Notes under the pieces: model-generated
What the model was told of the DNA's origin: nothing
Database searches by the model: none
The model's input: the letters and a program-made list of their open reading frames with translations, nothing else
Program-made: the position numbers and the translations under genes
Source of the DNA: an uncultured Candidatus Saccharibacteria bacterium
Lineage (GTDB): Bacteria; Patescibacteriota; Doudnabacteria; UBA920
Reading direction: 5' to 3'
Assembly: GCA_964416765.1 (NCBI GenBank)
Contig: CAYQEU010000002.1
Span: forward strand, 14,877-78,876
DNA length: 64,000 nucleotides
In this document: positions 2,840 through 63,669 of the stretch, piece by piece
How positions within the stretch are numbered: position 1 is the first letter of the stretch
How the letters are laid out: each line of letters starts with the position of its first letter

Positions 2840-2846
2840 CTTACAA

Positions 2847-3077: not shown

Positions 3078-3095
3078 AAAAAATAGTTTTAATAA

Positions 3096-9604: not shown

Positions 9605-10621
9605 TTATTTTTTTTGGGTTCGGGGTTTGCGTGTTGGCTTGTTCTGTTCCAATAGTTTTGCCATGAACCAGCGATTATATCGCCTGATCCCGTAGGTCAA
9701 CGCGAATATTACCAAGAAGAGTCCTAGAGCTATAAGCCCCACTAATTTATATGGAATAACCCAAAAACTAGTTTCAGCCCGAACGACCTGGCCCGAATCG
9801 CCATAGACCAATTCCACAGAGGCGGTATAACGGCCAAAAGCAAACTTGTCGGTCCAGGAACTTTCAAAAAGCCTTTCGCTATTCGGCAAAACATTGCTAC
9901 CATTCGGGTTCACCAGCGTGGTCCCAACCTTTTTCCCAAACATGTTCTTTATGGTAATGCTGCCCCGGGGCTTAACGTGAACGTTACCGGTGTTATGGAA
10001 GCGGGTGCGCAAGGTAACGGGTGCGCTTTCATAAACAGAGTGGGCCGGACGGAAGCTATTAATATTCCCTTCTTCGTTCGTTTTGCCCAGCTTGACCAGG
10101 ATAATAGCGGCAATCTTCTGGGATACTTCCACCGCGCTCCCCTCAACTTTAGGGGCAGTAAAGGCAAACTGGATAGAGCCATAATGGCCTCCATCCTCAG
10201 CATCGGCAGGGGCGGTAATAGTAAAGTCTATTTGGGTTTTTTCGTGAGGCTTTAAACTTAACTTAGGGTTGTTTTGAACTTTAAGCCACTTGGATAGGGC
10301 ATAAGTCTGGTCCCCTTCACCTGGTTCGTAAAAAATTTGCTGACCGTTATCACCGCCAGCAGTAAAATCCTTAATGGAAATATCAACCGGCAAAGTACGG
10401 TCCGTAGTGTTGGTCACCTCGATTGTATCCTTAAGGGTTTGTCCCCGTTCCATCTGCCGTTCCAAAATAAAGGGCGAAACGGAAAGTCCCTGGACGGGCC
10501 GGCCCGCGGCGTCGGTCTGAGCCAATGCTGAATTGGCAGACACAAACAACATACCCAATGAAGCGCAGAGAGCCAAAGCAATGGCGACTACCCGTTTCAA
10601 ATTATGGAGGTGAATTTTCAT
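9605..10621 (-). CDS. DUF916/CscA-like cell-surface protein (338 aa).
   Basis: Signal peptide 'ALALCASLGMLFVSANSALA', Ig-like beta-rich middle region, C-terminal TM plus KR-rich tail. Paralog of 32306-33283, sharing 'FAFGRYTA' and 'FWV/ILP' motifs. Confidence 0.65.
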   Translation of the reverse strand: MKIHLHNLKRVVAIALALCASLGMLFVSANSALAQTDAAGRPVQGLSVSPFILERQMERGQTLKDTIEVTNTTDRTLPVDISIKDFTAGGDNGQQIFYEPGEGDQTYALSKWLKVQNNPKLSLKPHEKTQIDFTITAPADAEDGGHYGSIQFAFTAPKVEGSAVEVSQKIAAIILVKLGKTNEEGNINSFRPAHSVYESAPVTLRTRFHNTGNVHVKPRGSITIKNMFGKKVGTTLVNPNGSNVLPNSERLFESSWTDKFAFGRYTASVELVYGDSGQVVRAETSFWVIPYKLVGLIALGLFLVIFALTYGIRRYNRWFMAKLLEQNKPTRKPRTQKK

Positions 10622-26400: not shown

Positions 26401-27236
26401 ATCAGCAAGGGAAAAGCCCCGGCCATACCGCCGGTTATGGTCAGCGTTCCGGCATCCGAATATATCTCTGCTCCGCCGGCAATCATGGTAATCAAGCCGC
26501 CGAAAGTATTGCTGTCGCTAACATTACGCAGAGCGCCTCCGCCGGCAACTCCATACCCTCTCAAAGCCAAAGGTTCATAACCAATATTTACACCTCCCTG
26601 TAGCTCCAAAGCGGAACCTCCGACTACTTCAGTACCAAGGGCGATACTGCCCAATGCTGTAGCGTTTTGGGCGTTTAGGGTACCCACATTAATTTTGGTT
26701 ACGCCGCCATAAGTGTTAGCGCCAGAAAGCACCAGTTTACCCGTTCCCTCTTTGTTAATACCGCCAACGCCGCCAATTCTGCCGCTGATAGTTAAAACTT
26801 CGGAAGTATTTGTTACAAAAATATCCCTGGTCACATCAAGGCGCATATCCAAACTAATTGTATTGCCCCCAGAGGAAGCACTGTCGGTAATTCCAGCCAG
26901 TCCCTGGCCGAGAATAAGTGGATTGCCGGAAAGATTATATCCGCTGCCGGAAAGAGTTATGGAATTGAAGATGGTATTTTCCGTAAGGTCGTTTACGCTA
27001 GAAAGATTTGAGGCCCCGGCAGGAAACACCAAATCATCGCCGGTGGCGGGGGCAGTGCCTCCCCAGTTGCTGGCATCTGACCATGAGCTGCTTGTAGTAC
27101 CGGTCCATGTTCTAACTGCAGCTTGGGCCCGGTTAACATTTCCGAAAAAAACAAAACCAGCCAGAAAGAACACCCCCACATAAAGCAGTGGTCTTATATA
27201 AGCAAAGGAAAATATTTTTTGTGCTCTGTTTCCCAT
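17415..27236 (-). CDS. Giant beta-helical adhesin-like surface protein (about 3270 aa) with at least 16 autotransporter-associated beta-strand (PATR-like) repeats.
   Basis: Signal peptide 'MGNRAQKIFSFAYIRPLLYVGVFFLAGFVFFGNVNRAQA'. Recurrent 'GxGTLxLxGxNTYTGxTTVxxGTL' units (NTYTGLTTVNAGTL, NSYTGTTTISAGTL, NTYSGITTISGGTL and others). A Gly-rich C-terminal linker precedes two ~38-aa repeats. The ORF track start at 27296 would overlap the upstream gene; the ATG at 27236 is preferred. Confidence 0.85.
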   Translation of the reverse strand: MGNRAQKIFSFAYIRPLLYVGVFFLAGFVFFGNVNRAQAAVRTWTGTTSSSWSDASNWGGTAPATGDDLVFPAGASNLSSVNDLTENTIFNSITLSGSGYNLSGNPLILGQGLAGITDSASSGGNTISLDMRLDVTRDIFVTNTSEVLTISGRIGGVGGINKEGTGKLVLSGANTYGGVTKINVGTLNAQNATALGSIALGTEVVGGSALELQGGVNIGYEPLALRGYGVAGGGALRNVSDSNTFGGLITMIAGGAEIYSDAGTLTITGGMAGAFPLLIDGAGNITYSTTPIGTAAGTVTKNGSGTLTYNFPNTYTGLTTVNAGTLLYGTHNAILSGAVTVTAGTLNISSYSDMVGTVTLGTLDGQSGTITGTSGVLSSAAFTVYAGNISAVLGGPGGTLTKSSTGTVTLTRANLFTGAVSVSAGILSIQNSLALGTVDGVTTVTSGATLVIDGNGMSIPEFISISGTGLINAGAIENQNGNNTITGLITQTAASTIESDAGATLTISNGGVTGAFGLTVDGDGDTIFDTGPIAIGAGTLTKNGPGTLTLNTFNPYTGSTTVNHGVLTLSGNGSIIQSTVMQINTDGAINIDNTTGQLDRLSDSLALTLAGGDFNLYGSSTGSVMSIVGALTVSAGQNKINFYPGSGGSTVLRFASIARTAGASLLVRGANLGSTPGAGVSTLMFKTAPTLVGDNGNPGTPTVSILQGVFGDNDTSGDGTDMVTYESGANNNGLRLLNHAGFSNEYTTDMSVTNANVRLSSSIPATTTQINSLILDTGASITDPGSPQTITFVSGNIINHASGAVIAGANTTLAGGTSEFIMRMVGDIDVSANITTSGGLTKSGAGNMTFSSAKSYTGATRINRGKLTIGVSNAIPSTSAVTVDSSTLDIGNFDNAVGAVTLQGGTITGGTGVLTGTSYSLRDGTISAIIGGSGTVTKINTNTNLEATVILTRNNVYTGATTVTSGILQLGAAGDGTYGPLGTTAGGVTIANGATLDMNGFTLNPAQSLTMRGTGVGGRGALINTSNTPAAWNGDIVLNNTGRIGANFGKITIGGGISGAFALTVGGFSDIDITGVISTITTVTKDGFGTYTPSNSNSYTGTTTISAGTLKLGGTGDATNSPLGTVAGITTIAAGARFDLNGYTLAAAEPLTINGVGYGLGDFASGVLMNSSASAVTYSGLITLGSASTIKADFGDINLTNSGTITGAALALTLGGTGNGTLSSIIGTTTGTVTKIGTGSWTLSGASTFTGATSVNVGTLIIGSAGSGTNTPLGVVSGATSVLSGAVLDLNGFTLTAAEPLTLNGRGINGGGALINNSSSATGYSGAITQATDSRITNSGSGLLTLTGGVTGAFSLYVGGGGDTTFSTGVLAMGAGTFSKDGAGTVTNNSSATYTGATRVYSGTFAYGASGLLAATPVTILGGTWDMGGVADTVGTVTLVGGTIQNGTLTSTGYTLESGTISAVLAGAVAVAKNTNNTVTLTGANTISSTTAINGGTLVLSGNGTAVSTTITINLGATLTLDNSTTNVADRLGNALVLTMNGGNFNFIGKDSTTVTETIGQLAFASGHNIVTIDPKAGSGGSGTTLTVANNPGFNRTAGATVLFRGLNFGSTPAAGVSSLIFSTTPTLTGAGGSANSKTISVIKGAFGDNSLTGTGSDMVTYNVGNTNGLRLLNGAGFSGEYAGDLATSNANVKLTADRTAVATNTNSLILNGFNITNPGSGVTLPVASASLSGNVLINSANNIAGANTTLGITTFELDVLATASSTISAVIGTATTGSLSLNGPGNITLSAANLYTGTTYVNNATLTYGVNNAISSGGVTIVGGTYNLAGNSDTVGALTVNAGAITTGAGTLTTSTGALTTIANNNVSTLITGKLALGAGGTFNIGDGLMDNDVIISAVISGSFALTKSTGAGVLELSGNNTYTGLTTVSAGTLRLGATGDSTNTPLGTTAAGTTISGASSALDLNGYTLATSEALTLSGALATGALQNNSSVAASYSGLITLGAASTIISNYGDINITNTGNITGNTFALTIGGAGNGTLASNLNTTTGTLTKNGLGTWTISGSGSYTGLTTISAGTLRLGAAGDGTNTPLGTTGGATTITSGAMLDLNGYTLSTTESLTVNGTGIASTGSLINNSSSATSYNGAITLGAASRIANYGSGVLTLAGAISGNFALTTVTMGDIAQSSASVWSGTGTLVKEGSGTLVLAGQNSMTGAMTVSTGVLQVGANGGATNTPLGTIAGGVTVSAGAVLDLSNYVVGGASTWEPLTLNGTGIANGGALISSAGSDNNFGAMTVSTNSLITNNGSGTINITGTVTIANAINLGVGGSGPTTISGSFGASATSATLTKWDSGTLILSGSSTTTGLTRINGGTLQYGTSNAINTGAVTVAGGILDINGNTDSVGAITIQNGGTITDSNGTPGVLTGTAYTFYGGGISGVLGGTAIAMTKSTGDSLTLSKTFANTGTLTINAGTVQYLASNIINDSAAVTVAGGTLDIQSYTDTLGTLTLTSGFIIGSGTFTGSSYAVASGTITANLAGAVNLTKTTTGTVTLAGTNTYSGITTISGGTLSVSTIGNGGVAGNLGQASNAAGNIVFNTAVGTLQYTGGSASTDRSYTTTNAIAATFDITNPGTVLTWGGAGTVTTAPITKSGPGTLVFTSAQGHTGLTTVSGGTLQYGVANMLSTGAVTVVNGVLDLNNISDSVGIITLQTDGQIIDSGGTTAVLTTTGTAALQSGLVSARLGGSVAAGISKTTGGRVTLSADNTFTSTSIALSAGYLNLQNSNALGASGTTLTTTITSGAVMELQGNITLPSTKLITANGTGVNNVGAIRNISDTNAIQATLTLGSSGVRVNSDSGSLTIPSVSGNARSLIVGGAGDTTITGAIATTSGTLTKDGAGTLTLSGANTFTGSLTLSGGTIVANATAALGSGGVNNTLIFNGGTLQASGNITSPVNRAVTLTQTAIIDTNGNDVSFAGTVGSAAGLTKLGSGTLTLTGVTTLGGELTISNGTFVAPANLTVTGNLSNSGTFTHNNGSVTIIPNSTTGVASVGGSSDTTFYDFADTTDNSILTFKAGKTYTFANSITVTGTSGRPIALSSDTPGQQWLMDLSGTASFSYLSVQDSGCSGVFTITNDGTLVNIGNNGSCWGFVSYGGGGGPTGGGSGSSGNSSGGGSSDGNGGICGNSAIAIAILTGDHVTSVTMVCGGSSYGIAPVVNFIDGGGTGAAAVAVLTGDVITAINVTNGGMNYTSAPTVTFGGVSGGGGGSGGGGSASP

Positions 27237-27252
27237 TGGGTTGATGTGCAAT

Positions 27253-29892
27253 TTAAGGGGTAGGGCCTGCACCTTCGGTTGCGGCAGATAAATCATCTTC
27301 CTGAGCGGTTGTGTTGTCTTCCGGAACGGTCGTGCTATCTCCGGCTACAGTGCCGGTATCTTCAGTAGGCGGCTCCTGGGCTGCTTGGGGTAATGAGTAA
27401 GTTACAATCGTGTAATTACCCGATGATTGGGTTATTACGGAAAGCTGATTATGGCTAAAAGTGTTGTAGCCCTCTTCTTTTGCTATTACCAAATAGTGGA
27501 CAATTGCCGGATTAGGCGTACCGTCTACGCCAAATGACTTGATAATAAACCCGGCGTAATTGCCGTTCTGGTCTTTTTTCCATGAGGCAATCTGGACGAA
27601 TACTGGACCATCACCCTCCGGAGTAAGCTGAACGACAGGTTTTCCGCTGCTAAGGTTGTGGCTGAATGTAATTTCAGCAGTCCCATCCGTTTCCGTGGCG
27701 ATTGAGCCGGCGAAGGTATCGTCTTGCATACTAATTAGGTTTTTGACGGCAACGACGCCCTGGGCATCAACGCTAAACAATTTACTATTGTCGGCGCTGA
27801 CCACGAACAACGTTTCAGAGGGGCTGTTGGGGCTGACATTGATTTCAGTAGCGCCATTATTGCGGACCAGCATGCGGCTAGTTTGCTGGTTTTGGACATT
27901 CAGAATATCCCCGCTTCCGTTTTGGTTTATCAAATAGGCCGCGGCATTGGTGGTGCTGGCAATCAGCTGAGTAGCCATTGTGCCGCGCTGTACATTTACG
28001 GAATTGTTAAACAGGTCAACCGTCTGGGTGGGATCATAATATATCGGGTTAACAAACACCAAAACCGTATTTCCGCTTAAACCGTTAAAGGAAGCTAAGG
28101 CTTGGCCGATCACCTTGCCGGGAGCTGTAGCTTTCATGGCATACCCGGGAATGGTAGCCGAACTGGTTAAGTAATCTCCGGGCTGGATAGTGCCATTTTC
28201 GATGGTTGCTTTAACCCGGACACGGCCAACCAATGCTACCGGTTGAGGATTGTCAGTAGGGTTAATGTTGTGGCCAATGCTGTTAAAGTCCCCGGCGTCT
28301 TCAATATTGGAAACCACTCCCACGAGATTGCTTTGGTAAGCGGAAGTTGTCTTAACCACTTTTACCAACCGGTCTCCCTGGGTGGTGGTTACATAGTTTG
28401 TTCCTGAGCTCACTACGTCAGCGGTTTGTATGTTGGGTTCAGCCGGATAAAATTCCATGTAGTCAGCGCCCGGTCCCGGGTTACAATCTTTAATAGCATC
28501 TAATCCCGTACCGTTTGTGTCATGGCACAAGGTAAAGTTGCCCGTGGACGAAGCAAGGTTGACGCTGGTGTTTCCGCTGTTGTCCACTTTAAACTTCGTG
28601 GTTCCTCCCGACTTGGCATTGATGAAGTTACCCGAGGCAAAAGTGCCGGAGTTGTTAGCAACATCAAACAATAATAAATTGCCGGTGTAGGCGCTAGATT
28701 CCTGGTAAATATCCACCATATCCGCGCTGGTCGCGTCATTGGTATAAGCACGGATGGCATTGCCGCGGGTTTTCGTGGTAGAATTCGCGCCGTTGTCCAA
28801 GTCCGCATATATGGCAGCTGGCTGAACTATGGAAGCTGCCTGGGACGTAGTGGTAGCCTGAAGGCCGAAAGTATAACCATAGCTGGCAATGCCAGTATTA
28901 ACCCCGTTTACATTGGAGCCGCTGTAGGCCTGGACTTCCAATCCCCGGACCACCTGCCCGGTGCCAAGCGAAGAATTATCAATCATTCTAATAAACTGGC
29001 CGTCGTAAGTTCCCGCCTGGCTGCCGCTGCTGGGAATTGTTGAAATGAACCGATTACCAAACTCAAAACCGGAAGCGGTCGCATTGCTCAGCGTATAATC
29101 TCCGAATATGCCTGCAATCGCGCTGCTGCCGCTGCTTGTAATGCTGTTAGTCAAAGTCAGGAGACCCTGTGACTGGATGCCGCCCGAACCCACACTAAGG
29201 TAAGTGCCCACGTTCAAGGCGCCGCCCGTTGTCACATCGCCGCCGGAGAAGTTAAAACCGGCGGAACTTCCAGTAGCCGTAAAGGTGGTTAGTCCGGCTG
29301 ATGAAACACCTAAAGTAAGCAGGTTGGAACCGTCGTAAGCAAGTGTAGCCTGGGGTACTGTTGTGTTGGTAAGGTAAATTATGCCATTGCCCTGGAGACT
29401 GTTGGCTATCATGGCCGCCGGAACCGCGCCCAGTGTTCTGCGAGGGGACATTTCCCCATCCCAGGACGGGGAACCGGTGCCGCCAATGTTGACTCCCAAA
29501 TAAAGCGTCTGGTTAAAGTCCACGCCGCTTAATGAAGTGACTTCGCCCAGCATAACGCTGAATACCCCATTTGTTATCTGCACCTTGTTAGCACCCGTGC
29601 GGGTTTCTGTCCAAAGCGCGGCTCCCCCGGTGGATACGTTGTACAATTTGAATTCTATGTTGTACTGTCCATCAGCAACCGCAACGTTGCTTAGGTTAGT
29701 AAGTTTGGCCTGGTAACTAATTTGGTTATTAATCCCTGTGGCCTGTGCCGTGCTTCCAGGCAAGGAAAGACCGAGAAGAATGAACAGTGCCACCGCGCAA
29801 AGCATGCCCATGGCAAAAGTAGATATGACAAGGGGGTGTTGACGGGTGGGCATGGCAGTAACCAGGCGCCAATTAAAAGCTGGGCGGTTCAT
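27253..29892 (-). CDS. Surface protein (879 aa), paralogous at both termini to the 1503-aa protein.
   Basis: N-terminal TM. Module 'LWTETRTG...NGVFSVMLG...DGEMSPR'. Conserved block 'LVGVVS...PVALVGRVRVKATIENGTIQPGDYLTSSATIPGYAMKA'. Shared C-terminal module. Confidence 0.8.
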   Translation of the reverse strand: MNRPAFNWRLVTAMPTRQHPLVISTFAMGMLCAVALFILLGLSLPGSTAQATGINNQISYQAKLTNLSNVAVADGQYNIEFKLYNVSTGGAALWTETRTGANKVQITNGVFSVMLGEVTSLSGVDFNQTLYLGVNIGGTGSPSWDGEMSPRRTLGAVPAAMIANSLQGNGIIYLTNTTVPQATLAYDGSNLLTLGVSSAGLTTFTATGSSAGFNFSGGDVTTGGALNVGTYLSVGSGGIQSQGLLTLTNSITSSGSSAIAGIFGDYTLSNATASGFEFGNRFISTIPSSGSQAGTYDGQFIRMIDNSSLGTGQVVRGLEVQAYSGSNVNGVNTGIASYGYTFGLQATTTSQAASIVQPAAIYADLDNGANSTTKTRGNAIRAYTNDATSADMVDIYQESSAYTGNLLLFDVANNSGTFASGNFINAKSGGTTKFKVDNSGNTSVNLASSTGNFTLCHDTNGTGLDAIKDCNPGPGADYMEFYPAEPNIQTADVVSSGTNYVTTTQGDRLVKVVKTTSAYQSNLVGVVSNIEDAGDFNSIGHNINPTDNPQPVALVGRVRVKATIENGTIQPGDYLTSSATIPGYAMKATAPGKVIGQALASFNGLSGNTVLVFVNPIYYDPTQTVDLFNNSVNVQRGTMATQLIASTTNAAAYLINQNGSGDILNVQNQQTSRMLVRNNGATEINVSPNSPSETLFVVSADNSKLFSVDAQGVVAVKNLISMQDDTFAGSIATETDGTAEITFSHNLSSGKPVVQLTPEGDGPVFVQIASWKKDQNGNYAGFIIKSFGVDGTPNPAIVHYLVIAKEEGYNTFSHNQLSVITQSSGNYTIVTYSLPQAAQEPPTEDTGTVAGDSTTVPEDNTTAQEDDLSAATEGAGPTP

Positions 29893-35404: not shown

Positions 35405-35550
35405 TTCTGTTTGACAGCAAGATAGCGAAAAGAAAGTGTAATACAATTACGTCGTTTCAGTATTGTGCATCTATATAGATAGATGACGACCACGGAATGT
35501 CCTAGTTCGGATTCGAAAATCAACGAACATCAGAAATTATATTCCTTAGA

Positions 35551-37014
<1,464 letters not shown>

Positions 37015-47668: not shown

Positions 47669-50600
47669 TTATGGCGCGATTTCCTGGCGATCCGGATTGC
47701 CGGATACGTCGGTAAACAGATAGGCCGGAGTAATTACGCGCTTATTGGGGAAGTTGCTCGGTTTAATATCTCCGATGTTTTGGAATCGGTAGATTGAGCC
47801 TGAGGCCGGCTTGGTAACGGTCGCGGTAAAGGAAATACTGCAAGTGGAGCTTGGCGCAACATCACCCACGGTGATGTTAATCGCGCCACCCTTGGCTATG
47901 GTTGCCGAACCGCTGGCACACCCCGAATAGGTGAAGTTGCCCGGGTTAGACAAGTTAGACAAGGTATCCGTGACTTGGACGGCAGTGGCTGCCCGGTCTC
48001 CAGTGTTACAAATATTGATGCGGAAGGTCACAATGTCGTTAACCTTGAATGACTTGCCGCCCTGCAAAGTTACCGGGTCGGAAACCGCGTTACAAGGTAT
48101 GACAGTGGAGGTAATGTTATTCGGGCTGGCCGCGGTGATATCCTTGTCGGAAGTAGACAGGTCAACCACACAGGCCCTGACGTTAGCCGGACCGGCACTT
48201 GCTTTAGCCGATTCAGCCGCTCCATTCAAGGCAGTTACCGCGTAGTAGTAGTTTCCTATCGGCGGATGATCAACGTAGGAGAAAGTTGAAGGATCTAACG
48301 GCGAGCCGGTAATTCGCTGCCAGGTTGAACCATCAGTAGAACGGTAAACATAGTACCCTGTAACGGTCTGGAGACCACGCGGGCGCTGCCAGGTTATGGT
48401 CGCCTGTTCACAAACAGAAACGTCTATATTCACTCGCTGTGGCGGGTTGGGAGCCACCACATTATTAACTACCACAGTTACTATTGCTGAAGCGGAGGTT
48501 GGGGTGGTGTTGGGGTTTTCACAGTAGCCCAGGAAGCGATAACTGCCTGCCGCGTTAAATGGCCCGTAGGAAATGTCGCCATTTACAGTGTTAGCCCCAT
48601 TGATGGGTACCCATTCTCCAGTATCAAAGCCGTCTTCCCAATACACTTGGCAAGTGGCGGCGTTGGTGGAACCCCAAACCAGATTGGTATTTTGTCCTAC
48701 ATTAACCGGGGATGTTCGGGTTAACCACGCATCCAAAGGAAGCGCGGCCTGTACCTGGATGGTAATTATGGTATTTACTTGGGTCGGGGTAGTATTGGTG
48801 GCGTTGGCCTGGCAAAGGTACCGGGTAGTGGAAGTCAAAAGCGCCGATTGAACACTACCGCTATTGCCCGTAGCTCCCGAAATCGGAACCCAATCTCCCG
48901 CGTTAAGGGTCTGCTCACGGTAGATTTGGGTAGTCTGTGAGTTTGGCGCGGACCAGGTTAGTGTTGTGCTGGTGTTGTATGGAATTGGCGAAGCTGGATT
49001 TGCGGTAAGGGAACAATCCAGCGGCGACGGGGCAGCCACATGGGTTACCGAAGTCGCGGTTCGCTGGGTTGGAGAAGCGTTAGAGTTGGTACACTGGTTG
49101 TAAAAAGTGTAGTCTCCCGGCCCTGGTAATGGATTGGTCACGAATGAGCTGTGGAGGGAAGTACCAATTTGAACGGTCTGACTGGAAGGAGTCACATACC
49201 ACTGTTGGCAGGTAGTACCAGGAGCTGGGTTTGGTGAATCCCAACTAACATTAGCTGTTCCCAAGTTATTTATGTTCGCTGGGGAAGTTATGGTCGCGTC
49301 CAAGTTAACTGAATTGGATATAACAGTGGCTACAGCGTCTCGTTGGGGAGGAGTGGCAGTAGCACTGACACATTGGTTCAGGAAACTGTACGTCCCTATT
49401 TGGGCAATCGAGTAATCGGAGGCACCGCTAGTGCTGCCATACGGAGCGCCAGTCAATTCGGTATAGCTCGGCGCGCCCGGAGCCTGGACAAACTGCCTAC
49501 ATGAATCAGCATTAGTTGAGCCCCACACTAAGTGGGTGGACTGCCCCGCTGAAACAGGAGAAGTGGCGGTCATGGTTGCATCCAGAGGGATGGGCTGTCC
49601 CTGAACGTTAACCGGGATGTTGCCTGGCTGGCCGAACACGGTATGACTCTGCAAATCTACTAATTTAAATTGAAGGGTGTAAGTTCCGCCGGTGCTGGGA
49701 GTAGTAATGTTAACGGGCGCAAACTGCCCCTGTTGGCCAAAATGGACGCTCGAATAGGGCGGGGTGTAGTTGGCAACTATTATGGTCGTAGTAACATAGT
49801 GACATGTATCGCCTGGATCTATAGGACGGGCTTGGGCCGTTGGAACAAGGAAATTTAGAATTGACCCAGCAATCTTTTGCAAAGCGCCGGTATTGTTCAC
49901 GACGGGTGGTTGATATGGTCCACCCCCAGGATTCTCACCGCCGCCAGGTTCACAAATTTCTTCTGTATATGTTTCTTCGTGAAAAGCTACATTCTGACGG
50001 ATAAAGAATGGGATAGTGTTGTCGGGTGTGGCGCTGGCGGGACTGGTATTTTCCGGAATAGTAGTAGCTGGTCCAGAATAAACATAGCTTGACCCATTGT
50101 AAGTCACATCGTTACTGTTGGAACGAAGCTGTTGGGAACGTACCTGGACACCAGAGCTTCCCACGTTACCCAGACGAATTAAGCGGTAACGATCGGAAGA
50201 TAAAATTTGGTAGTCATTACAGGTTGCACCGGTAGAATAATCAAATGGACCGCCTTCATCCTGGCTAACACAGTGGCCGTCCAAAGGCCGGACGGTCTTG
50301 TCAGCGTTCCACTGCACACCGCGGTTTTCAAAAACAATGTTGTAGTTGTTGTTATAAGCGGTGGAAGTAGCGAGTTGGGCTGTGGGGATTGTGGTACTGA
50401 TGTAGTTAGCATCGGGTGGAATATTAACAGAACCTACCTGCAAGTAAGCGCCGAAGCAACCGGGGTCGTTATCGCGCTGGGCCCCATAAGCCCAACCGGA
50501 AGGACTAGCCGAGTTGGCTGGACTCAAGGCAACACCGGATGAAGAGCCGCAACCGTTATAATCCCGCTGGTAGGCCAATGCCACACCGGCACTGACTCCG

Positions 50601-51082
50601 CTAAAAGTAGTCCCAGCCGGAAGCCCGCTATCAGTGACTGGCCTGGTGTTAACCTGAACGGACATGGTACCCGCTAAGTTGCCACCATGGTTGCCGGAAA
50701 TAGTTCCGTTAATAGAAGCCGGGTAGCCTTGGCTTTCGCTGGCCCAGCGGCTGCAGCTTTGCTGGCCGTTGTACCATAAACAAAACTGGAAATCCTGGGT
50801 GTAAGTATCCGGGTTGGCAATTCGGACCCGGAGACAGTCAGGGTCATTGCCGTCAGTAGTTGAAGTTCCTTCGCCTGCAACTTGGTGGTAACAGTCACCT
50901 GGCAAACTCGGGCCGGTATTGCGGCCGTCACCATACTGGATGTAAATGACGGGCGCGGTTTGGTCCGCTGCGGCCTGTTGTACCTTCCATAAGTTACCGA
51001 AAGAAAATGCCAAGGCCAGGGCCACGCCCGCGAATGCCAGCACTTTCATCCGTGAAGTAAAAATTTTGCGGATTTGTTTCAT
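47669..51082 (-). CDS. Large secreted multidomain protein (1137 aa) with Ig-like repeats, an FN3 domain and a DUF11-like C-terminal domain.
   Basis: Signal peptide 'VLAFAGVALALAFSFG'. About 100-aa repeats ('ATATPPQRDAVATVISNSVNLDATITSP', 'TTPTSASAIVTVVVNNV'). FN3 'VTGYYVYRSTDGSTWQRITGSP...NYYYAVTALNGAAES'. DUF11-like 'IVTFRINICNTGDRAATAVQVTDTL'. Confidence 0.8.
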   Translation of the reverse strand: MKQIRKIFTSRMKVLAFAGVALALAFSFGNLWKVQQAAADQTAPVIYIQYGDGRNTGPSLPGDCYHQVAGEGTSTTDGNDPDCLRVRIANPDTYTQDFQFCLWYNGQQSCSRWASESQGYPASINGTISGNHGGNLAGTMSVQVNTRPVTDSGLPAGTTFSGVSAGVALAYQRDYNGCGSSSGVALSPANSASPSGWAYGAQRDNDPGCFGAYLQVGSVNIPPDANYISTTIPTAQLATSTAYNNNYNIVFENRGVQWNADKTVRPLDGHCVSQDEGGPFDYSTGATCNDYQILSSDRYRLIRLGNVGSSGVQVRSQQLRSNSNDVTYNGSSYVYSGPATTIPENTSPASATPDNTIPFFIRQNVAFHEETYTEEICEPGGGENPGGGPYQPPVVNNTGALQKIAGSILNFLVPTAQARPIDPGDTCHYVTTTIIVANYTPPYSSVHFGQQGQFAPVNITTPSTGGTYTLQFKLVDLQSHTVFGQPGNIPVNVQGQPIPLDATMTATSPVSAGQSTHLVWGSTNADSCRQFVQAPGAPSYTELTGAPYGSTSGASDYSIAQIGTYSFLNQCVSATATPPQRDAVATVISNSVNLDATITSPANINNLGTANVSWDSPNPAPGTTCQQWYVTPSSQTVQIGTSLHSSFVTNPLPGPGDYTFYNQCTNSNASPTQRTATSVTHVAAPSPLDCSLTANPASPIPYNTSTTLTWSAPNSQTTQIYREQTLNAGDWVPISGATGNSGSVQSALLTSTTRYLCQANATNTTPTQVNTIITIQVQAALPLDAWLTRTSPVNVGQNTNLVWGSTNAATCQVYWEDGFDTGEWVPINGANTVNGDISYGPFNAAGSYRFLGYCENPNTTPTSASAIVTVVVNNVVAPNPPQRVNIDVSVCEQATITWQRPRGLQTVTGYYVYRSTDGSTWQRITGSPLDPSTFSYVDHPPIGNYYYAVTALNGAAESAKASAGPANVRACVVDLSTSDKDITAASPNNITSTVIPCNAVSDPVTLQGGKSFKVNDIVTFRINICNTGDRAATAVQVTDTLSNLSNPGNFTYSGCASGSATIAKGGAINITVGDVAPSSTCSISFTATVTKPASGSIYRFQNIGDIKPSNFPNKRVITPAYLFTDVSGNPDRQEIAP

Positions 51083-59372: not shown

Positions 59373-59459
59373 TGGTGCCGAAGGTGGGACTTGAACCCAC
59401 AAGCCGTTGCCGGCGCTAGCTCCTAAGGCTAGTGCGTATGCCAATTCCGCCACTTCGGC
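59373..59459 (-). tRNA. tRNA-Leu (anticodon TAG), class II with a long variable arm.
   Basis: rc reads GCCGAAG...anticodon loop CTTAGGA...variable arm CGCCGGCAACGGC...T-arm GTGGG-TTCAAGT-CCCAC...CTTCGGC-A-CCA. Confidence 0.85.
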
Positions 59460-59484: not shown

Positions 59485-59520
59485 ACAAAAAACCGGACTA
59501 GGCCGGTTTTGTCTTGTTTT
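59485..59520. terminator. Bidirectional rho-independent terminator.
   Basis: AACCGG-actagg-CCGGTT hairpin with flanking T-runs. Ends the pilin-like array. Confidence 0.6.
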
Positions 59521-59522: not shown

Positions 59523-59984
59523 CTAGATATTGGAGGTTAACTGCTTAGTCAAAGCGGAAACTATCACGTAAGAAAGTATGACTATCGCAACGCCAATCAA
59601 GGCATATACGAGAGTTTGCCGTCCTTTGGTGGCCTGTTCCTCGTTGCCGCGGGCTGTAATGTAATAGTAGCCACCGATGATAACAAATACCACCGCGATT
59701 ATGCCGGCAAAGTAGAGCATGTACTTAACTATCATGGCTATGAGGCCGGTGGCTGTAGTTTGGCCGACCAGGGAATTATTCCCGCCATTAATGGGATTTT
59801 TTGGCAAACAAAGAGGGCCAGCCTGTTCAAATTCACCGCAATCCCCTGAAGACGTAGTGCCGCCATTGTTGTCTGGCGGATCAGCATGAACCAGGGCGGG
59901 GGCAAGGCTAGCCGCGCTCATCAGCATCAAAAAGCTTACCACTATGGCACTATATATATTTTGAAGCGAGAAATTCTTTTTCAT
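59523..59984 (-). CDS. T4SS-pilin-like (TrbC/VirB2-type topology) small secreted membrane protein, paralog 1 (153 aa).
   Basis: Signal peptide, Cys-pair loop 'DCGEFEQAGPLC', conserved hairpin 'FVIIGGYYYITARGNEEQATKGRQTLVYALIGVAIVILSYVIVSAL'. Confidence 0.7.
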   Translation of the reverse strand: MKKNFSLQNIYSAIVVSFLMLMSAASLAPALVHADPPDNNGGTTSSGDCGEFEQAGPLCLPKNPINGGNNSLVGQTTATGLIAMIVKYMLYFAGIIAVVFVIIGGYYYITARGNEEQATKGRQTLVYALIGVAIVILSYVIVSALTKQLTSNI

Positions 59985-59990
59985 ATGTTT

Positions 59991-60536
59991 TTAAATACAA
60001 GGAGGTTGTCCTACGCCACCGCAAGCAGTGCCGTTTCCATTATTGCTGTTGCCACCGCTGTTATTACCGCCGCCATTGTTGGTGTTAACAGTGCCATTTC
60101 CACCTCCGCCTGTTCCGTTGGCACCGTTGCGGACGAAAGTAAGAACAGCGTTAACTATGACAAACGACAACAACACAATAACCAAACCAATTAAAGCATA
60201 AATCAAAGTTTGCCGGCCGGCTGTGGCTTTTTCCTCATTGCCCGCGGAAGTGATGTACTGGTAACCACCGTAGATGACCATAATAACCGCGACGGCGAAA
60301 GCAATACCAAGGGCAATATTAATAATCTGGCCAAAAATTTCTGCTGGCGTTTTGCCAGAGAAAACAGTGTTGGGATAAGAATTGCCGGTAGAGTTTTTTA
60401 ACTGGTTTAGCCCGTCACCCACGCCGTCAGCATGGCTCAAAGCTGGAGCAACGAGCAAAACAGAAAAGCTGGCCATAAGGGCAGCGATGAACAAGATGGC
60501 TTTGCGGAAAGTTTTTTGTGTAGTCATGGGTTTCAA
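59991..60536 (-). CDS. T4SS-pilin-like paralog 2 (181 aa) with a Gly/Asn-rich, Cys-containing C-terminal tail.
   Basis: 'VIMVIYGGYQYITSAGNEEKATAGRQTLIYALIGLVIVLLSFVIVNAV', then '...GNGTACGGVGQPPCI'. Confidence 0.7.
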   Translation of the reverse strand: MKPMTTQKTFRKAILFIAALMASFSVLLVAPALSHADGVGDGLNQLKNSTGNSYPNTVFSGKTPAEIFGQIINIALGIAFAVAVIMVIYGGYQYITSAGNEEKATAGRQTLIYALIGLVIVLLSFVIVNAVLTFVRNGANGTGGGGNGTVNTNNGGGNNSGGNSNNGNGTACGGVGQPPCI

Positions 60537-60595
60537 TCCCAGCGGGCCAAATGTTTGGCCAGCCGAGACTGACCCGCACAGAGTGCGGGACAGGG

Positions 60596-61012
60596 CTAGG
60601 TGTTGTTTGCCACGAAGCGGTAAACAGCACTGACAATTACGAAAGATAATACAATAACCACTATACCAATAAGGGAGTAAACAATAGCATTCTTCCCTTT
60701 TTCAGCAGACTCCTCGTTACCAGCGGATGTAATGTACAGGAAGCCGCCGTAGATCAAATAAATAACAGCAACGAAGAACGCGATACCCAGGGCATAGTTG
60801 ATGATAGTCTTAAAGAGACTAGGCAAATCAACGTTTTGGTCACAACGAACCCCGGTACCCTGACACTGGTTGGTAAAGTTGTTGATGTAAGGGGTCTGAG
60901 CTGTAGCGTGGCCGCTAAAAGCGAATGGAGCAAGGGCGATAACCATTACTACCACCATCTGAGCTACTACTAACCAATTTGTCTTTTTTAGAAGTTGTTT
61001 CAATTGTTTCAC
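60596..61012 (-). CDS. T4SS-pilin-like paralog 3 (138 aa).
   Basis: Cys loop 'CQGTGVRC', then 'VIYLIYGGFLYITSAGNEESAEKGKNAIVYSLIGIVVIVLSFVIVSAV'. Confidence 0.7.
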   Translation of the reverse strand: MKQLKQLLKKTNWLVVAQMVVVMVIALAPFAFSGHATAQTPYINNFTNQCQGTGVRCDQNVDLPSLFKTIINYALGIAFFVAVIYLIYGGFLYITSAGNEESAEKGKNAIVYSLIGIVVIVLSFVIVSAVYRFVANNT

Positions 61013-61108
61013 CCCCTTCCGGGATTACATAAGCCTGCGGGTATAGGCTTATGAAGGATGGCTAGTTCAAAAATCACTGATAAAATCGTACCATATTTCC
61101 CGCGATTT

Positions 61109-61525
61109 TCAAAACGCTTTGCCGTTAACAAACAGATTGATAACAATATTTACCAATGCCGCGGCCATCATGGCTACCGCAAGTCCAATCACCGCGTAGA
61201 GCACGGTTTGCTTTCCGGCGTCAGCCTGTTCCTGGTTACCAGCCGAAGTAATGTAGCGGTAACCGCCAACAATAATCATAATCATGGTTCCACCACCGAT
61301 CAGAAGGAAAATGATGTTTAGGATGTAGCGGATCAGACCAACTGCGGTACAGTATTGGGGGAGGGTGTCGGTGACATTCGAAAACTCTCCGCCGTACTTA
61401 TCAAACGTGCCCTTCAGCTTGTCACAGCCTCCTGAGGCAGCTAAAGCCGGAAGTGGCAAGAAGCTTGTCGAAAGTAAAGTGAAGACTAACACCAAAAAAG
61501 TAGTAATGAGAAGTTTTGCTTGCAT
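61109..61525 (-). CDS. T4SS-pilin-like paralog 4 (138 aa).
   Basis: Cys pair 'GGCDK...PQYC', then 'MIIVGGYRYITSAGNQEQADAGKQTVLYAVIGLAVAMMAAALVNIV'. Confidence 0.7.
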   Translation of the reverse strand: MQAKLLITTFLVLVFTLLSTSFLPLPALAASGGCDKLKGTFDKYGGEFSNVTDTLPQYCTAVGLIRYILNIIFLLIGGGTMIMIIVGGYRYITSAGNQEQADAGKQTVLYAVIGLAVAMMAAALVNIVINLFVNGKAF

Positions 61526-62373
61526 TACTTTGAAAGTAAGTTTTGGACAACGGACACCAGGCTGTATGCCATTAGTGCAACTATCAAACCGGCAATCGCC
61601 CAGATTATGGTCTGCTTACCCTTAGTGATAGACTCCTGATTGCCCTGAGAGAAGACCAAGCGAACACCGCCGATGACTATAACCAACAACGCCATCAAGC
61701 CAATTAGAAAAAAGAATCCTCGCAGTACCCACACCACCAACTCCGGAAATGTGTCTATATTGATTGGATTATTGAGCGAACCCACATTTTTGTCGAAATC
61801 CGAATTGCTCACATTACCGCAACCTTCACCGGTACAGCCATTGCCAGGAGCATTGTTAGCCGGGGTGTTGTTAATAGGTGGGGTACCCGCTTTCTCTACC
61901 GTGGCTGTTTCTCCCTTATGCAGAATAACGGAAGGATTGTCGGAACTTATTACTTCCGGATGCATGATTATTCTGCCGCCTACTTGAAAATGATTAAAAG
62001 GATAAGTTACGCTTTTGACTATGTAATATACTTTGGACTTTGTGTCATATGTCCATTTGTTTCCTGGCGCGCTCATCTCGAGATAATGAGTATTTACGCT
62101 ACCCGAGTCTATGATCACGTACCATTGCAGCTTGGATAATTCCGCTTCGGCTGCCGCTCCCTTGGTACAATTTTTTGCTGCTAAGCTGTAGCTATATTCA
62201 ACAGGAGTGGTTTCTTCCTCAGCTACCGCGGGAATGATATTAAGCCCTATTACCAGATCGCCTGGGCCGGTACAAGCTTGGGCCGCATGGGGACGTGTGG
62301 CAAAGTAAGACCCGCTAAACACTATAAGTGCTACTAACCCCAAAAGTAAACTCTGTTTATATTTTTTTATCAT
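61525..62373 (-). CDS. T4SS-pilin-like paralog 5 (282 aa) with an additional N-terminal domain of about 150 aa.
   Basis: Cys loop 'GCTGEGC', then 'LVIVIGGVRLVFSQGNQESITKGKQTIIWAIAGLIVALMAYSLVSVV'. ATGA-coupled to paralog 4. Confidence 0.65.
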   Translation of the reverse strand: MIKKYKQSLLLGLVALIVFSGSYFATRPHAAQACTGPGDLVIGLNIIPAVAEEETTPVEYSYSLAAKNCTKGAAAEAELSKLQWYVIIDSGSVNTHYLEMSAPGNKWTYDTKSKVYYIVKSVTYPFNHFQVGGRIIMHPEVISSDNPSVILHKGETATVEKAGTPPINNTPANNAPGNGCTGEGCGNVSNSDFDKNVGSLNNPINIDTFPELVVWVLRGFFFLIGLMALLVIVIGGVRLVFSQGNQESITKGKQTIIWAIAGLIVALMAYSLVSVVQNLLSK

Positions 62374-62394: not shown

Positions 62395-63669
62395 CTAACG
62401 CCGGACAAGGGTGCTGGCTTGGTTTTCTGCCTGTCCCAAAGCCTCATCAACGGATTTATTATTCAAGATAACAGCATCAATCATCTTGTTGAGAATATCA
62501 TTCATCTTGGCTTCATCGGGCTTGTAGAAAGATTTGGCTGTTAAGTTGGCGTTGGCAAAAACCCCGATTTCCAAATCCGGTATCTGTAGGGCAATTAAAT
62601 CACGGCGGGATGAAGGAACTTTGGACTTGGCGTAGTATTTATCCAGCGCATCTTTAGTGGTGGCAAAATGCAGGAAATCCCAAGCGGTATCCGCGTTAGG
62701 ACTCTGTTTGCTCACCACTTCGCCGAAGTAATTGGCAAAATTAACCGAGTTACCGTCTAAATTGTACTGTGGCACCGGTGCAACATCAAAATTCAGGTTT
62801 GGTGATTTGGCGATAATCTGTTGTCGGGCGTAAGTGTAACTGTAAAGGAAAGCAGTGCGCCCATTCGCAAAGGCATCAATGGAATAGTCACTGCGCAGGT
62901 TCCAGGAGTAGTTATCGTTTGAGGGAGTAGCAAATGATGTATAAAACCTTAAGGCAGTCCGGCCCTCTGGGCTATTAAACTTTGGACTTAGGCCATCCGC
63001 CGACCAAGGGATCGAACCCGCCTGAAGCATAAACAACGCCACAATATCCTGTGCGCGGTTAATATTAGAGCTGGTTCCCAGGGCCACGCCACTGCGTGAA
63101 AAGTAACCAGTTTGGTCCTGACGCGCAATTTTCCTGACATCGCCCTGCAGCTCCGCCCATGTTTTGGGTGGGGCAACAATTCCGACCGTACCCAAAATGT
63201 CCTTATTATAGTAGAGGGCCAGGGAATCAACTGAAAGCGCGGTCCCGTAAACTTTTTGGTCCTTACTGAAATCCTTTACCACAACATCAACAAAATTATC
63301 GTGGAATTCCTTGTAGGAGAATTGGGTATCCTTCGCAGCGGTGATCTTATCTATATATTTAGGCAGCCAGGTATTGTTGATGGAAAAAATATCGGGACCG
63401 TTACCGGCAGCCAAAGCATTCAGCAAATCGCTTTCGTAATTGTTGATGTCCGGCGACTTATATTCAAAAGACACGTTAGGGTGAAGCTTGGTGTATTCAT
63501 CCGTCAAGACGTGCATGTATTCTTCTGATACAAAGGGCTTCCAAATAGTCAGTTTAACTTCCTTTGAAGTCGGGCCAATTTTAGTACCGCAACCCACGCC
63601 AACCACAGCGACCAACGCAAGCATGGCGGCGAGACGAGTAAACGATTTTGCAAAACTTATTTTTTTCAT
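62395..63669 (-). CDS. ABC transporter substrate-binding lipoprotein (family 1 extracellular solute-binding protein, sugar-type).
   Basis: Lipobox 'VGVGCG'. SBP_bac_1-like length and pattern ('DIFSINNTWLPKY', 'ALYYNKD'). Confidence 0.75.
   Translation of the reverse strand: MKKISFAKSFTRLAAMLALVAVVGVGCGTKIGPTSKEVKLTIWKPFVSEEYMHVLTDEYTKLHPNVSFEYKSPDINNYESDLLNALAAGNGPDIFSINNTWLPKYIDKITAAKDTQFSYKEFHDNFVDVVVKDFSKDQKVYGTALSVDSLALYYNKDILGTVGIVAPPKTWAELQGDVRKIARQDQTGYFSRSGVALGTSSNINRAQDIVALFMLQAGSIPWSADGLSPKFNSPEGRTALRFYTSFATPSNDNYSWNLRSDYSIDAFANGRTAFLYSYTYARQQIIAKSPNLNFDVAPVPQYNLDGNSVNFANYFGEVVSKQSPNADTAWDFLHFATTKDALDKYYAKSKVPSSRRDLIALQIPDLEIGVFANANLTAKSFYKPDEAKMNDILNKMIDAVILNNKSVDEALGQAENQASTLVRR

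What the first reader, a model, noticed from the sequence alone, without database searches (positions are those of the whole stretch)
59523..62373. Tandem array of five diversified T4SS-pilin-like (VirB2/TrbC-topology) genes with a Cys-bridged hypervariable loop
Five consecutive minus-strand genes (153, 181, 138, 138 and 282 aa) each have a signal peptide and a conserved two-helix hairpin, '(I/V)(I/V)GG(Y/F/V)xY(I/V)T(S/A)xGN(E/Q)E...G(K/R)(Q/N)(T/A)(L/I)(I/V)(Y/W)A(L/V)IG', which is the topology of conjugative T4SS pilins. The extracytoplasmic segment is hypervariable between copies but always contains a Cys pair (DCGEFEQAGPLC, CQGTGVRC, GGCDK...PQYC, CTGEGC, ACGGVGQPPC). One copy moves the variable part to the C-terminus and one adds a ~150-aa N-terminal domain. 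No VirB4, VirD4 or VirB6 gene is in this window. Intergenic stem-loops (60545-60560, 60573-60589, 61037-61060) separate the copies. The array looks like a diversifying repertoire of surface filament or adhesin subunits; antigenic variation or host-cell-contact specificity are possible roles.
Basis: partly seen in the sequence, partly recalled or inferred. Interest (0 to 1): 0.75.

Follow-up and report, generated by a model that had tools for sequence, protein, structure and literature searches.

The report
Patescibacterial T4SS pilin gene array
Five neighbouring genes in an ultrasmall (Patescibacteria/CPR) bacterium encode VirB2-like type IV secretion pilins; such arrays are already described for this phylum, and here the copies are old, conserved paralogues, not a fast-varying repertoire.

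Summary
Five minus-strand genes (59523-62373) each encode a signal peptide, a Cys-paired exposed segment and a conserved two-helix hairpin. All five pass Pfam's threshold for T4SS_pilin (PF18895).

The kind is already known. Tandem arrays of 2-11 divergent VirB2-like pilin genes are described in Patescibacteria (441 arrays; essential in Southlakia epibionticum).

The "diversifying / antigenic variation" reading is not supported:
- The same five genes, in the same order, occur in related genomes.
- Each paralogue's Cys loop is conserved among its orthologues.
- dN/dS is 0-0.09 per gene.
- The array is identical in four metagenomes.

Three things are added here:
- The middle gene, P3, has a conserved expression module of its own: an extended -10 promoter-like element, a 5' hairpin, a strong SD with a TTG start, and a 3' double hairpin. 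It is therefore the candidate major subunit.
- Exposed-segment Cys come in even numbers across the family (133 even, 16 odd).
- A membrane-tethered maltose-binding-protein-like SBP gene directly precedes the pilin array in 74 of 80 related loci from several classes. In Moranbacteria this SBP gene heads an SBP-pilin-PrgI-TraC-like-VirB4 operon.

No T4SS ATPase lies in the window or within about 10 kb of it. Verdict: a new member of a known kind, of modest interest.

The parts
62395..63669 (-). SBP-like gene (424 aa). It is related to maltose/trehalose-binding proteins, has a lipobox-like N-terminus (VGVGC), and lies 21 nt upstream of P5.
   Evidence: Pfam SBP_bac_1 and SBP_bac_8 match at E about 1e-30. 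The closest PDB relative is 1eu8, E = 3e-18. Homologues directly precede a pilin array in 74 of 80 related loci. Orthologues are lipoproteins or TM-anchored. dN/dS is 0.01-0.02.
61525..62373 (-). P5 (282 aa). Signal peptide, then a lineage-restricted beta-rich N-terminal domain of about 150 aa (C34, C69), a conserved CTGEGC loop, and a C-terminal VirB2-like hairpin. Candidate specialised (tip or adhesin) subunit.
   Evidence: PF18895 at 38.5 bits. Orthologue alignment A3. The model has low confidence (pLDDT 55) and shows about 8-9 strands plus the hairpin. The N-domain has only 6 relatives among 1.84 billion representative proteins.
61109..61525 (-). P4 (138 aa), a VirB2-like pilin with a C34...C59 loop. 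Its start overlaps the P5 stop (TAATG).
   Evidence: PF18895 at 39.9 bits. The loop motif gCD.L...F..yGG...LP.YCT is conserved in orthologues.
61085..61112 (-). Promoter-like element in front of P3: TTGAAA, 16 nt, then TG-extended TACGAT.
   Evidence: Found by the consensus scan. A TRTGnTAYnRT-type extended -10 lies at the equivalent place upstream of most P3 orthologues. Promoter function is inferred.
61028..61053 (-). 5'-UTR hairpin (9-bp stem) just upstream of the P3 SD GGAAGGGGGTGA.
   Evidence: Fold. A hairpin with a different sequence occupies the same position in L002, L003 and other loci.
60596..61003 (-). P3 (135 aa from the TTG start; the ORF opens at GTG 61012). VirB2-like pilin with a CQGTGVRC loop. 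Candidate major subunit.
   Evidence: PF18895 at 46.1 bits. It is the only copy above the NCBIfam NF045849 cutoff. Its orthologue group is the most widely recognisable, with 24 sequences. It has a conserved private expression module and the lowest dN and dS in the array.
60537..60589 (-). Double hairpin directly after P3, with no U-tract. Likely a 3' stabiliser or partial terminator.
   Evidence: Free energy -37.1 kcal/mol, z = -6.1. A double hairpin with a different sequence occurs after 14 of 15 P3 orthologues, z from -3.8 to -9.
59991..60527 (-). P2 (178 aa from the ATG). VirB2-like pilin with no Cys in its N-terminal segment and a G/N-rich C-terminal extension ending in CGGVGQPPC.
   Evidence: PF18895 at 48 bits. 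Gene call of 178 aa on the identical contig. The C-terminal extension is absent from the L002 and L003 orthologues.
59523..59984 (-). P1 (153 aa). VirB2-like pilin with a C49-C59 loop, CGEFEQAGPLC.
   Evidence: PF18895 at 37.1 bits. AlphaFold model: hairpin H78-109 / H115-151 at pLDDT about 90, with a small beta-hairpin inside the Cys loop. The loop is conserved in orthologues.
59489..59510 (-). Intrinsic-terminator-like hairpin plus T-run that ends the array, before tRNA-Leu (59373-59459).
   Evidence: Terminator scan, fold z = -3.2. It is conserved in L085, L089, L002 and L003.

Best explanation
This is the chromosomal VirB2-like pilin gene set of a Patescibacteria (CPR) type IV secretion system, probably in a Doudnabacteria-related lineage. 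Here it is separated from the ATPase genes and is probably transcribed together with an upstream membrane-tethered SBP-like protein.

Each product is predicted to be Sec-exported and to have its signal peptide removed at an AxA-like site. It is left as a two-helix hairpin in the membrane, from which a VirB4-type machine encoded elsewhere would extract and polymerise it. The disulfide-clamped N-terminal segment (C-terminal in P2) would lie on the outer face.

The five genes are not interchangeable variants. They are five ancient paralogue types, each conserved, kept in fixed order. This implies distinct structural roles:
- P3 is the abundant major subunit. It has its own promoter-like element, 5' hairpin, strong SD and 3' double hairpin.
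- P5, with its fast-evolving N-terminal domain, is a candidate tip or specificity subunit.
- P4, P2 and P1 are candidate minor or adaptor subunits.

Shown: family membership, topology, orthology and collinearity, purifying selection, the conserved P3 regulatory architecture, and the SBP linkage. Inferred: filament assembly, subunit roles, disulfides and co-transcription.
For: - All five pass the PF18895 gathering score.
- Each has a signal segment plus two hydrophobic helices. The hairpin is modelled at pLDDT about 90.
- The literature describes 441 such arrays in Patescibacteria, with mean identity 25% (PMC12102498). The array in S. epibionticum is essential (PMC10633639 and PMC12857230).
- Orthologous five-gene arrays occur in the same order.
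- The Cys loops are conserved within orthologue groups.
- dN/dS is 0-0.09.
- The P3 expression module is conserved in 15 loci.
- In Moranbacteria the gene order is SBP, pilins, PrgI, TraC-like, VirB4.
- The SBP-to-array adjacency holds in 74 of 80 related loci even though the flanking genes differ between classes.
- Exposed-segment Cys counts are even in 133, odd in 16 and zero in 44 of 193 pilins.
Against: - No VirB4, VirB6 or VirD4 is in the window or within about 10 kb on either side. The rest of the genome could not be searched.
- The TrbC/VirB2 model PF04956 is below threshold for all five.
- Fold search of the hairpin found no significant match to solved conjugative pilins.
- No T4SS pilus has yet been seen in any Patescibacterium (PMC12857230).
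- The 'major subunit' role of P3 rests on regulatory architecture and conservation, not on expression data.
Confidence: 0.6

Rival explanations
1. One reading: a diversifying repertoire. The copies are alternative surface variants used for antigenic or phase variation, or to match different host-cell surfaces. This is what has been proposed for Bartonella and Anaplasma VirB2 paralogues and suggested for Patescibacteria.
For: Paralogues are only 23-38% identical and differ most in the exposed segment. PMC12102498 suggests such versatility could aid adaptation to different host strains. The N-terminal domain of P5 is lineage-restricted and diverges between genera.
Against: - The array is collinear, with one-to-one orthologues, across genomes whose SBP is only 55-70% identical.
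- The loops are conserved within orthologue groups.
- dN/dS is at most 0.09 per gene and at most 0.14 in the exposed segments where dS could be estimated; P1's exposed-segment dS was saturated.
- Gene number is fixed at five in close relatives.
- The region is identical across four metagenomes.
- No silent cassettes, invertible promoters or repeats were seen.
Confidence: 0.07
2. These are T4SS components but not a pilus. The VirB2-like hairpins form a short membrane- or wall-spanning conduit or stalk of the monoderm T4SS, or a hetero-oligomeric channel, not an extended filament.
For: Monoderm (MPF-FATA) T4SSs generally lack pili, and no Patescibacteria T4SS pilus has been observed. NCBIfam relates the copies to a 'pilin-like conjugal transfer protein' of wall-less Mycoplasma ICEs, with only P3 above that model's cutoff. 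Five conserved distinct subunits fit a defined complex as well as they fit a filament.
Against: This cannot be separated from the pilus model with sequence data. The Cys-clamped, surface-type ectodomains and P5's extra domain suggest exposure beyond the membrane.
Confidence: 0.22
3. The genes are unrelated to a T4SS. They encode small two-TM membrane proteins that work with the adjacent SBP as an unconventional SBP-dependent uptake or signalling system.
For: An SBP gene directly precedes the array in 74 of 80 related loci. No ABC permease or ATPase, and no VirB4, lies nearby in this clade. P2-P4 give weak sub-threshold hits to DctQ (E about 0.02).
Against: The PF18895 matches are above threshold, whereas the DctQ hits are about 13 bits below its cutoff. 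In Moranbacteria the same SBP-pilin module is contiguous with PrgI, TraC-like and VirB4 genes. Saccharimonadia arrays lie inside the T4SS cluster without any SBP.
Confidence: 0.08

Closest known systems
VirB2-like pilin arrays of Patescibacteria T4SS (Quinonero-Coronel et al. 2025, PMC12102498; the six essential pilins SEML1_0014-0019 of Southlakia epibionticum ML1, Wang et al. 2023, PMC10633639)
   Same: Tandem PF18895 genes, 2-11 per array, with low identity between copies (mean 25%). They are chromosomal, not associated with a relaxase, and occur in monoderm ultrasmall bacteria.
   Different: Here the array is not next to virB4, prgI or virB6. It follows an SBP-like lipoprotein gene and sits between housekeeping genes (GalU/ComM upstream, tRNA-Leu/FtsH downstream). 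The papers searched do not mention an SBP partner. The Saccharimonadia cluster has none.
Conjugative pilins VirB2 / TrbC / TraA (PF04956) of diderm T4SSs
   Same: A signal peptide followed by two hydrophobic helices joined by a short polar loop; small size; the predicted termini lie outside.
   Different: The PF04956 score is below the gathering threshold for all five (12.6-24 bits against 27.9). No significant structural match was found. The exposed segments carry Cys pairs. No cyclisation or acetylation genes were seen. The organism is a monoderm.
Mbov_0395 / MMCAP2_0565 pilin-like conjugal transfer protein of Mycoplasma ICEs (NCBIfam NF045849)
   Same: The hairpin core matches across nearly the full 80-residue model. 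P3 scores 45 bits against a cutoff of 40.
   Different: The other four copies are below the cutoff (24-33 bits). The Mycoplasma protein is a single gene within a mobile ICE, whereas this is a conserved chromosomal five-gene array.
Multi-copy VirB2 paralogues of Bartonella and Anaplasma T4SSs (proposed antigenic variation)
   Same: Several divergent VirB2 genes in tandem (cited in PMC12102498).
   Different: Here the paralogues are ancient, collinear and under strong purifying selection, with conserved loops. This is the opposite of the signature expected for immune or host evasion.
Major/minor subunit operons of other pili (chaperone-usher pap/fim, type IV pilus major and minor pilins)
   Same: One subunit gene is bracketed by stem-loops and has its own strong expression signals, alongside several lower-expressed specialised paralogues. 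This resemblance is an inference plus general knowledge of pap operon mRNA processing.
   Different: The protein fold and assembly machine are unrelated. The analogy concerns operon logic only.

Membership tests
Pfam PF18895 T4SS_pilin | Whole-protein HMM score at or above the curated gathering score (26.6 bits) | tested here: met
   Scores are 37.1, 48.0, 46.1, 39.9 and 38.5 bits for P1-P5. The precomputed annotations on the identical contig agree.
VirB2/TrbC-type conjugative pilin (functional class) | Cleavable signal peptide followed by two hydrophobic helices joined by a short polar or charged loop | tested here: met
   Hydropathy segments. AxA-like sites are visible in the sequences. The model shows H78-109 / H115-151 at pLDDT about 90.
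VirB2/TrbC-type conjugative pilin (functional class) | Match to the TrbC/VirB2 model PF04956 above its gathering score (27.9 bits) | tested here: not met
   P1, P2, P4 and P5 score 23.0, 18.5, 24.0 and 12.6 bits. P3 has no hit listed at E<=1.
VirB2/TrbC-type conjugative pilin (functional class) | Encoded with, or in the same genome as, a VirB4-family ATPase and other T4SS core genes | tested here: inconclusive
   None is in the window or in about 10 kb beyond either end. Homologous SBP-pilin modules are contiguous with PrgI, TraC-like and VirB4 in Moranbacteria. VirB4 is reported in 2,417 of 3,035 Patescibacteria assemblies.
VirB2/TrbC-type conjugative pilin (functional class) | Fold similarity to solved conjugative pilin structures | tested here: inconclusive
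   Foldseek against the PDB gave a best E of 0.36 to unrelated helical hairpins. The A. pernix conjugation pilus 8dfu ranked 30th at E = 3.4. A profile search of PDB sequences found nothing.
VirB2/TrbC-type conjugative pilin (functional class) | Polymerises into an extracellular filament | not testable with these tools
   This needs microscopy or biochemistry. It has not been shown for any Patescibacterium.
Patescibacteria VirB2 array (as defined in PMC12102498) | 2-11 PF18895/VirB2-like genes in tandem (or separated by one gene) with low identity between copies | tested here: met
   Five adjacent genes with gaps of -1 to 96 nt. Identity to P1 is 23-38%.
Antigenically variable or diversifying pilin repertoire | Exposed segments vary between strains (dN/dS above 1), or copy number and content differ between close relatives | tested here: not met
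   dN/dS is 0-0.09 per gene and at most 0.14 in the exposed segments where dS could be estimated; P1's exposed-segment dS was saturated. Loops are conserved. There are five genes in the same order in all close relatives. There are no differences across four samples.
NCBIfam NF045849 Mbov_0395 pilin-like conjugal transfer protein | Score at or above the curated cutoff (40 bits) | tested here: inconclusive
   P3 scores 45.0 bits (met). P1, P2, P4 and P5 score 29.5, 33.3, 31.0 and 24.1 bits (not met).
ABC-transporter solute-binding protein, family 1 (for the upstream gene) | SBP_bac_1 / SBP_bac_8 domain, together with adjacent permease and ATPase genes | tested here: inconclusive
   The domain criterion is met at E about 1e-30. 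No permease or ATPase gene is among the annotated neighbours in this clade or in Moranbacteria.

The most novel reading that the evidence does not exclude
The maltose-binding-protein-like SBP is a previously unrecognised, conserved partner of the Patescibacteria T4SS pilus in several non-Saccharimonadia classes. Together with a heteromeric filament built from five fixed VirB2-like subunit types (P3 major, P5 tip), it would form a host-contact apparatus that captures or senses host-derived saccharide. That would give genetic support to the idea that this essential T4SS serves nutrient or signal uptake and not DNA export.
Probability: 0.15. Interest if true: 0.7.

Novelty: new member of a known kind. 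Interest (0 to 1): 0.3.

Why it matters
Patescibacteria make up a large share of bacterial diversity and live attached to host cells. Their T4SS with a pilin array is one of the few systems shown to be essential for that lifestyle, yet its function is unknown.

This locus adds no new category, but it sharpens the picture in three ways:
- The pilin paralogues behave as fixed, non-redundant parts, not as a variable repertoire.
- One of them (P3) carries the hallmarks of a major subunit.
- A sugar-binding-protein-like lipoprotein gene is genetically coupled to the pilins across classes, and to VirB4 in Moranbacteria.

These are testable leads on what the apparatus is built from and what it might bind.

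Tried and rejected
- **Fold search of the P1 model against the PDB.** It returned only generic helical hairpins and nothing significant, so it does not help decide membership.
- **PDB sequence search with the pilin profile.** No meaningful hits.
- **P5 structure prediction.** Confidence was too low (pLDDT 55) to justify a fold search of its N-domain. I searched 1.84 billion representative proteins instead. That showed the domain is lineage-restricted but gave no functional clue.
- **Locating VirB4 in this genome through a homologue search with the Moranbacteria VirB4.** The list was saturated with Moranbacteria proteins at 74-91% identity. None could be tied to this organism's contigs.
- **tblastn of T4SS proteins from L084 and L077 against the window and all loci.** Hits came only in L069 and L077.
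- **Mobile-island reading (tRNA-Leu lies next to the array).** Rejected. GC content matches the surroundings, and the whole neighbourhood from RecA to SMC is syntenic across the clade.
- **Weak DctQ, RseC and cytochrome-assembly Pfam hits.** Treated as hydrophobic-composition noise, since all are far below their cutoffs.
- **Lipoprotein reading of P5 (Cys directly after the predicted cleavage site).** Rejected. The -1 residue is E, V or T in orthologues.
Full report
**1. Observation**

The five minus-strand ORFs exist as described: 59523-59984, 59991-60536, 60596-61012, 61109-61525 and 61525-62373. Their alignment shows the conserved core, GG(Y/F/V)x(Y/L)(I/V)(T/F)(S/A)xGN(E/Q)E...G(K/R)(Q/N)(T/A), and 23-38% identity to P1.

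Each protein has an N-terminal hydrophobic signal segment and two long hydrophobic segments. Cys counts are 2, 2, 2, 2 and 4, all outside the hairpin, against a window background of 0.7% Cys.

The intergenic stem-loops are real:
- A double hairpin lies after the third gene at 60537-60589 (-37.1 kcal/mol, z = -6.1).
- A 9-bp hairpin lies at 61028-61053.
- A canonical terminator lies after the last gene at 59489-59510.

Two starts should be corrected. P2 probably begins at ATG 60527, giving 178 aa (gene call). P3 begins at TTG 61003, giving 135 aa.

**2. Family**

All five proteins pass the Pfam gathering score for T4SS_pilin PF18895 (37-48 bits against 26.6). TrbC/VirB2 PF04956 stays below its threshold. 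NCBIfam relates them to the Mycoplasma-ICE 'pilin-like conjugal transfer protein', with only P3 above that cutoff.

An AlphaFold model of P1, built from 29 sequences, gives a confident helical hairpin (H78-109 / H115-151, pLDDT about 90). A small beta-hairpin sits inside the C49-C59 loop. Fold and sequence searches against solved structures were uninformative, as expected for a bare hairpin.

**3. Organism and surroundings**

The window carries:
- a bacterial 16S rRNA gene and four tRNA genes;
- housekeeping genes: FtsH, SMC, RNase III, NusA, RNase Y and TrmD;
- giant surface proteins;
- the start of a type IV pilus locus at its left end.

The closest relatives of the neighbouring SBP gene are Patescibacteria MAGs. 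Most are labelled Candidatus Doudnabacteria. The two closest (68-70%) are TPA bins labelled 'uncultured Candidatus Saccharibacteria'.

No VirB4, VirD4, VirB6, PrgI or TraC-like gene is in the window or in the roughly 10 kb reachable beyond each end.

**4. What is already known**

Quinonero-Coronel et al. 2025 (PMC12102498) found VirB2-like pilins in 1,948 Patescibacteria assemblies that also had VirB4. The pilin gene lay near virB4 in 1,135 of them. They also found 441 arrays of 2-11 pilin genes, with 25% mean identity between copies. VirB4 occurs in 2,417 of 3,035 assemblies.

In Southlakia epibionticum the six-gene pilin array inside the T4SS cluster is essential for epibiotic growth (PMC10633639; reviewed in PMC12857230). 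The finding is therefore an instance of a described kind. A Saccharimonadia-type example was also retrieved here: VirB4, TraC-like, PrgI, two large proteins, then six pilins.

**5. Is it a diversifying repertoire? No.**

- **Same genes, same order.** The same five genes occur in close relatives. These include a JGI 730-kb contig, L085-L089 at about 90% amino-acid identity, and L002 and L003. BLAST assigns one-to-one orthologues with large margins. The order (long P5-type, P4, P3, P2, P1) persists across Doudnabacteria-level loci.
- **Conserved loops.** The Cys loops that differ between paralogues are conserved within each orthologue group. P1 has CGEFEQxGPLC(L/V)PKNP. P4 has gCD.L...F..yGG...LP.YCT. 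P5 has CTGxGCG...FDKNVGxL.NPINI. Between orthologues, the variation lies mainly in the signal peptides and in the low-complexity linker just after the cleavage site.
- **Purifying selection.** Nei-Gojobori dN/dS against two relatives is 0-0.09 per gene. It is at most 0.14 in the exposed segments where dS could be estimated; in P1's exposed segment dS was saturated and no ratio was obtained. These values are comparable to FtsH (0.017) and the SBP (0.01-0.02).
- **No population variation seen.** The SBP-plus-array region is identical in four metagenome assemblies. These samples may not be independent.

The only fast-evolving piece at deeper distances is P5's N-terminal domain. It has six detectable relatives among 1.84 billion representative proteins.

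**6. Internal organisation**

In all 15 loci where a P3 orthologue was recognised, the gene starts with TTG, 6-8 nt after GGGGGTGA. Upstream there is usually a TG-extended -10-like element at 60-90 nt and a hairpin next to the SD. In 14 of 15 loci a double hairpin follows the gene, with z from -3.8 to -9. The hairpin sequences differ between loci while the structure persists.

P3 is also the most widely conserved paralogue. It has the lowest dN and dS in the array.

I infer that P3 is the abundant major subunit and that the others are minor or specialised subunits. The hairpins would set the stoichiometry through transcript stability or partial termination. This is an inference; no expression data were available.

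**7. Cys pairs**

I examined 193 pilins from the related SBP-linked arrays. Extracytoplasmic Cys counts are even in 133, zero in 44 and odd in 16. The binomial p-value is 4e-24 among those with any Cys, but the sequences are not phylogenetically independent. Cys frequency is 3.3% in the N-terminal exposed segment and 0.12% in the hairpin.

Paired Cys in the exposed segments are thus a family trait and are consistent with disulfide-clamped surface loops. The disulfides themselves are inferred. The papers read here did not mention this.

**8.

The gene 21 nt upstream of P5 (62395-63669) is a family-1 solute-binding protein related to maltose/trehalose-binding proteins. It has a lipobox-like N-terminus, and its orthologues are lipoproteins or TM-anchored.

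Searching species-representative genomes with this SBP returned 80 loci from several Patescibacteria lineages. In 74 of them a PF18895-type array of 1-7 genes starts immediately downstream on the same strand. Flanking genes are syntenic within the Doudnabacteria-like clade but differ in the other lineages, while the SBP-to-pilin adjacency persists.

In Moranbacteria the order is SBP, pilin, pilin, PrgI, TraC-like, VirB4, an unnamed ORF, then ComM. There the SBP gene heads the T4SS operon. No ABC permease or ATPase gene is among the annotated neighbours. The Saccharimonadia cluster has no such SBP. I found no paper linking an SBP to these pilins.

This ties the window's array to the T4SS despite the absence of VirB4 nearby. 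It also suggests that the SBP is a system component.

**9. Verdict**

The antigenic-variation interpretation is not supported.

The locus is a new member of a known kind. It comes with three refinements: fixed paralogue types with a candidate major subunit, paired Cys as a family trait, and a conserved SBP partner. These are modestly interesting and testable.

The main gaps are the unsearched remainder of the genome (VirB4) and the lack of any expression or structural evidence for a filament.

Noticed in passing
window 62395-63669 (-); loci L002-L081, L090-L092: An orphan, membrane-tethered SBP gene (maltose-binding-protein-like) directly precedes a T4SS_pilin array in 74 of 80 related loci from several Patescibacteria lineages. 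In Moranbacteria it heads an SBP-pilin-pilin-PrgI-TraC-like-VirB4 operon. No ABC permease or ATPase gene is nearby. This is not mentioned in the papers searched.
   Followed up: yes
window 414-2645 (-) and beyond the left end (L083): A type IV pilus (T4P, not T4SS) locus. PilM and two small ORFs lie in the window. PilB, PilT, PilC, prepilin peptidase and N_methyl pilins lie just outside it.
   Followed up: partly
window 35550-37013 (-); 2763-3171 (+): A complete 16S rRNA gene stands alone, with no 23S or 5S in the window. tRNA-Ile(GAT) and tRNA-Ala(TGC), the usual rRNA-spacer tRNAs, lie about 32 kb away on the other strand. The rRNA genes therefore appear to be unlinked.
   Followed up: no
window 17415-27296 (-), 27253-29892 (-), 4932-9443 (-), 47669-51082 (-): Several very large predicted proteins: a 3,293-aa protein with 14 PATR repeats, an overlapping upstream 879-aa ORF with no Pfam hit, a 1,503-aa ORF with no Pfam hit, and a 1,137-aa DUF11 protein.
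   Followed up: no
window 60596-61003 (-) compared with L085 and L089: P3 has a much lower synonymous divergence (dS 0.09-0.20) than its neighbours (0.35-1.3). Possible causes are codon or RNA-structure constraint on a highly expressed gene, or recent recombination.
   Followed up: partly
window 59991-60120 (-), C-terminus of P2: The G/N-rich C-terminal extension ending in CGGVGQPPC is present in the window and in its relatives at about 90% identity. It is absent from the P2 orthologues in L002 and L003, so it is a recent lineage-specific addition.
   Followed up: partly
L004, L010, L012, L014, L015, L026 (arrays downstream of the SBP): Deeper Doudnabacteria arrays carry two extra paralogue types that the window lacks. 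One is a first gene with a conserved RGLVPCGG...PC motif and, typically, 4 mature-region Cys. The other, where the array is complete, is a last gene of 230-290 aa with 10-22 Cys.
   Followed up: no
window 61759-62280 (-), P5 N-terminal domain: This beta-rich domain of about 170 aa has only six detectable relatives among 1.84 billion representative proteins. Five are proteins of about 280 aa, like P5, three of which were already identified as P5 orthologues. The sixth is a 976-aa protein with seven weak repeats of a 50-aa stretch.
   Followed up: partly
window 14539-15810 (-), 9605-10621 (-): A secreted CAP (cysteine-rich secretory protein) domain protein and a protein with a WxL-interacting peptidoglycan-binding domain. 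These add to a window rich in predicted surface proteins.
   Followed up: no
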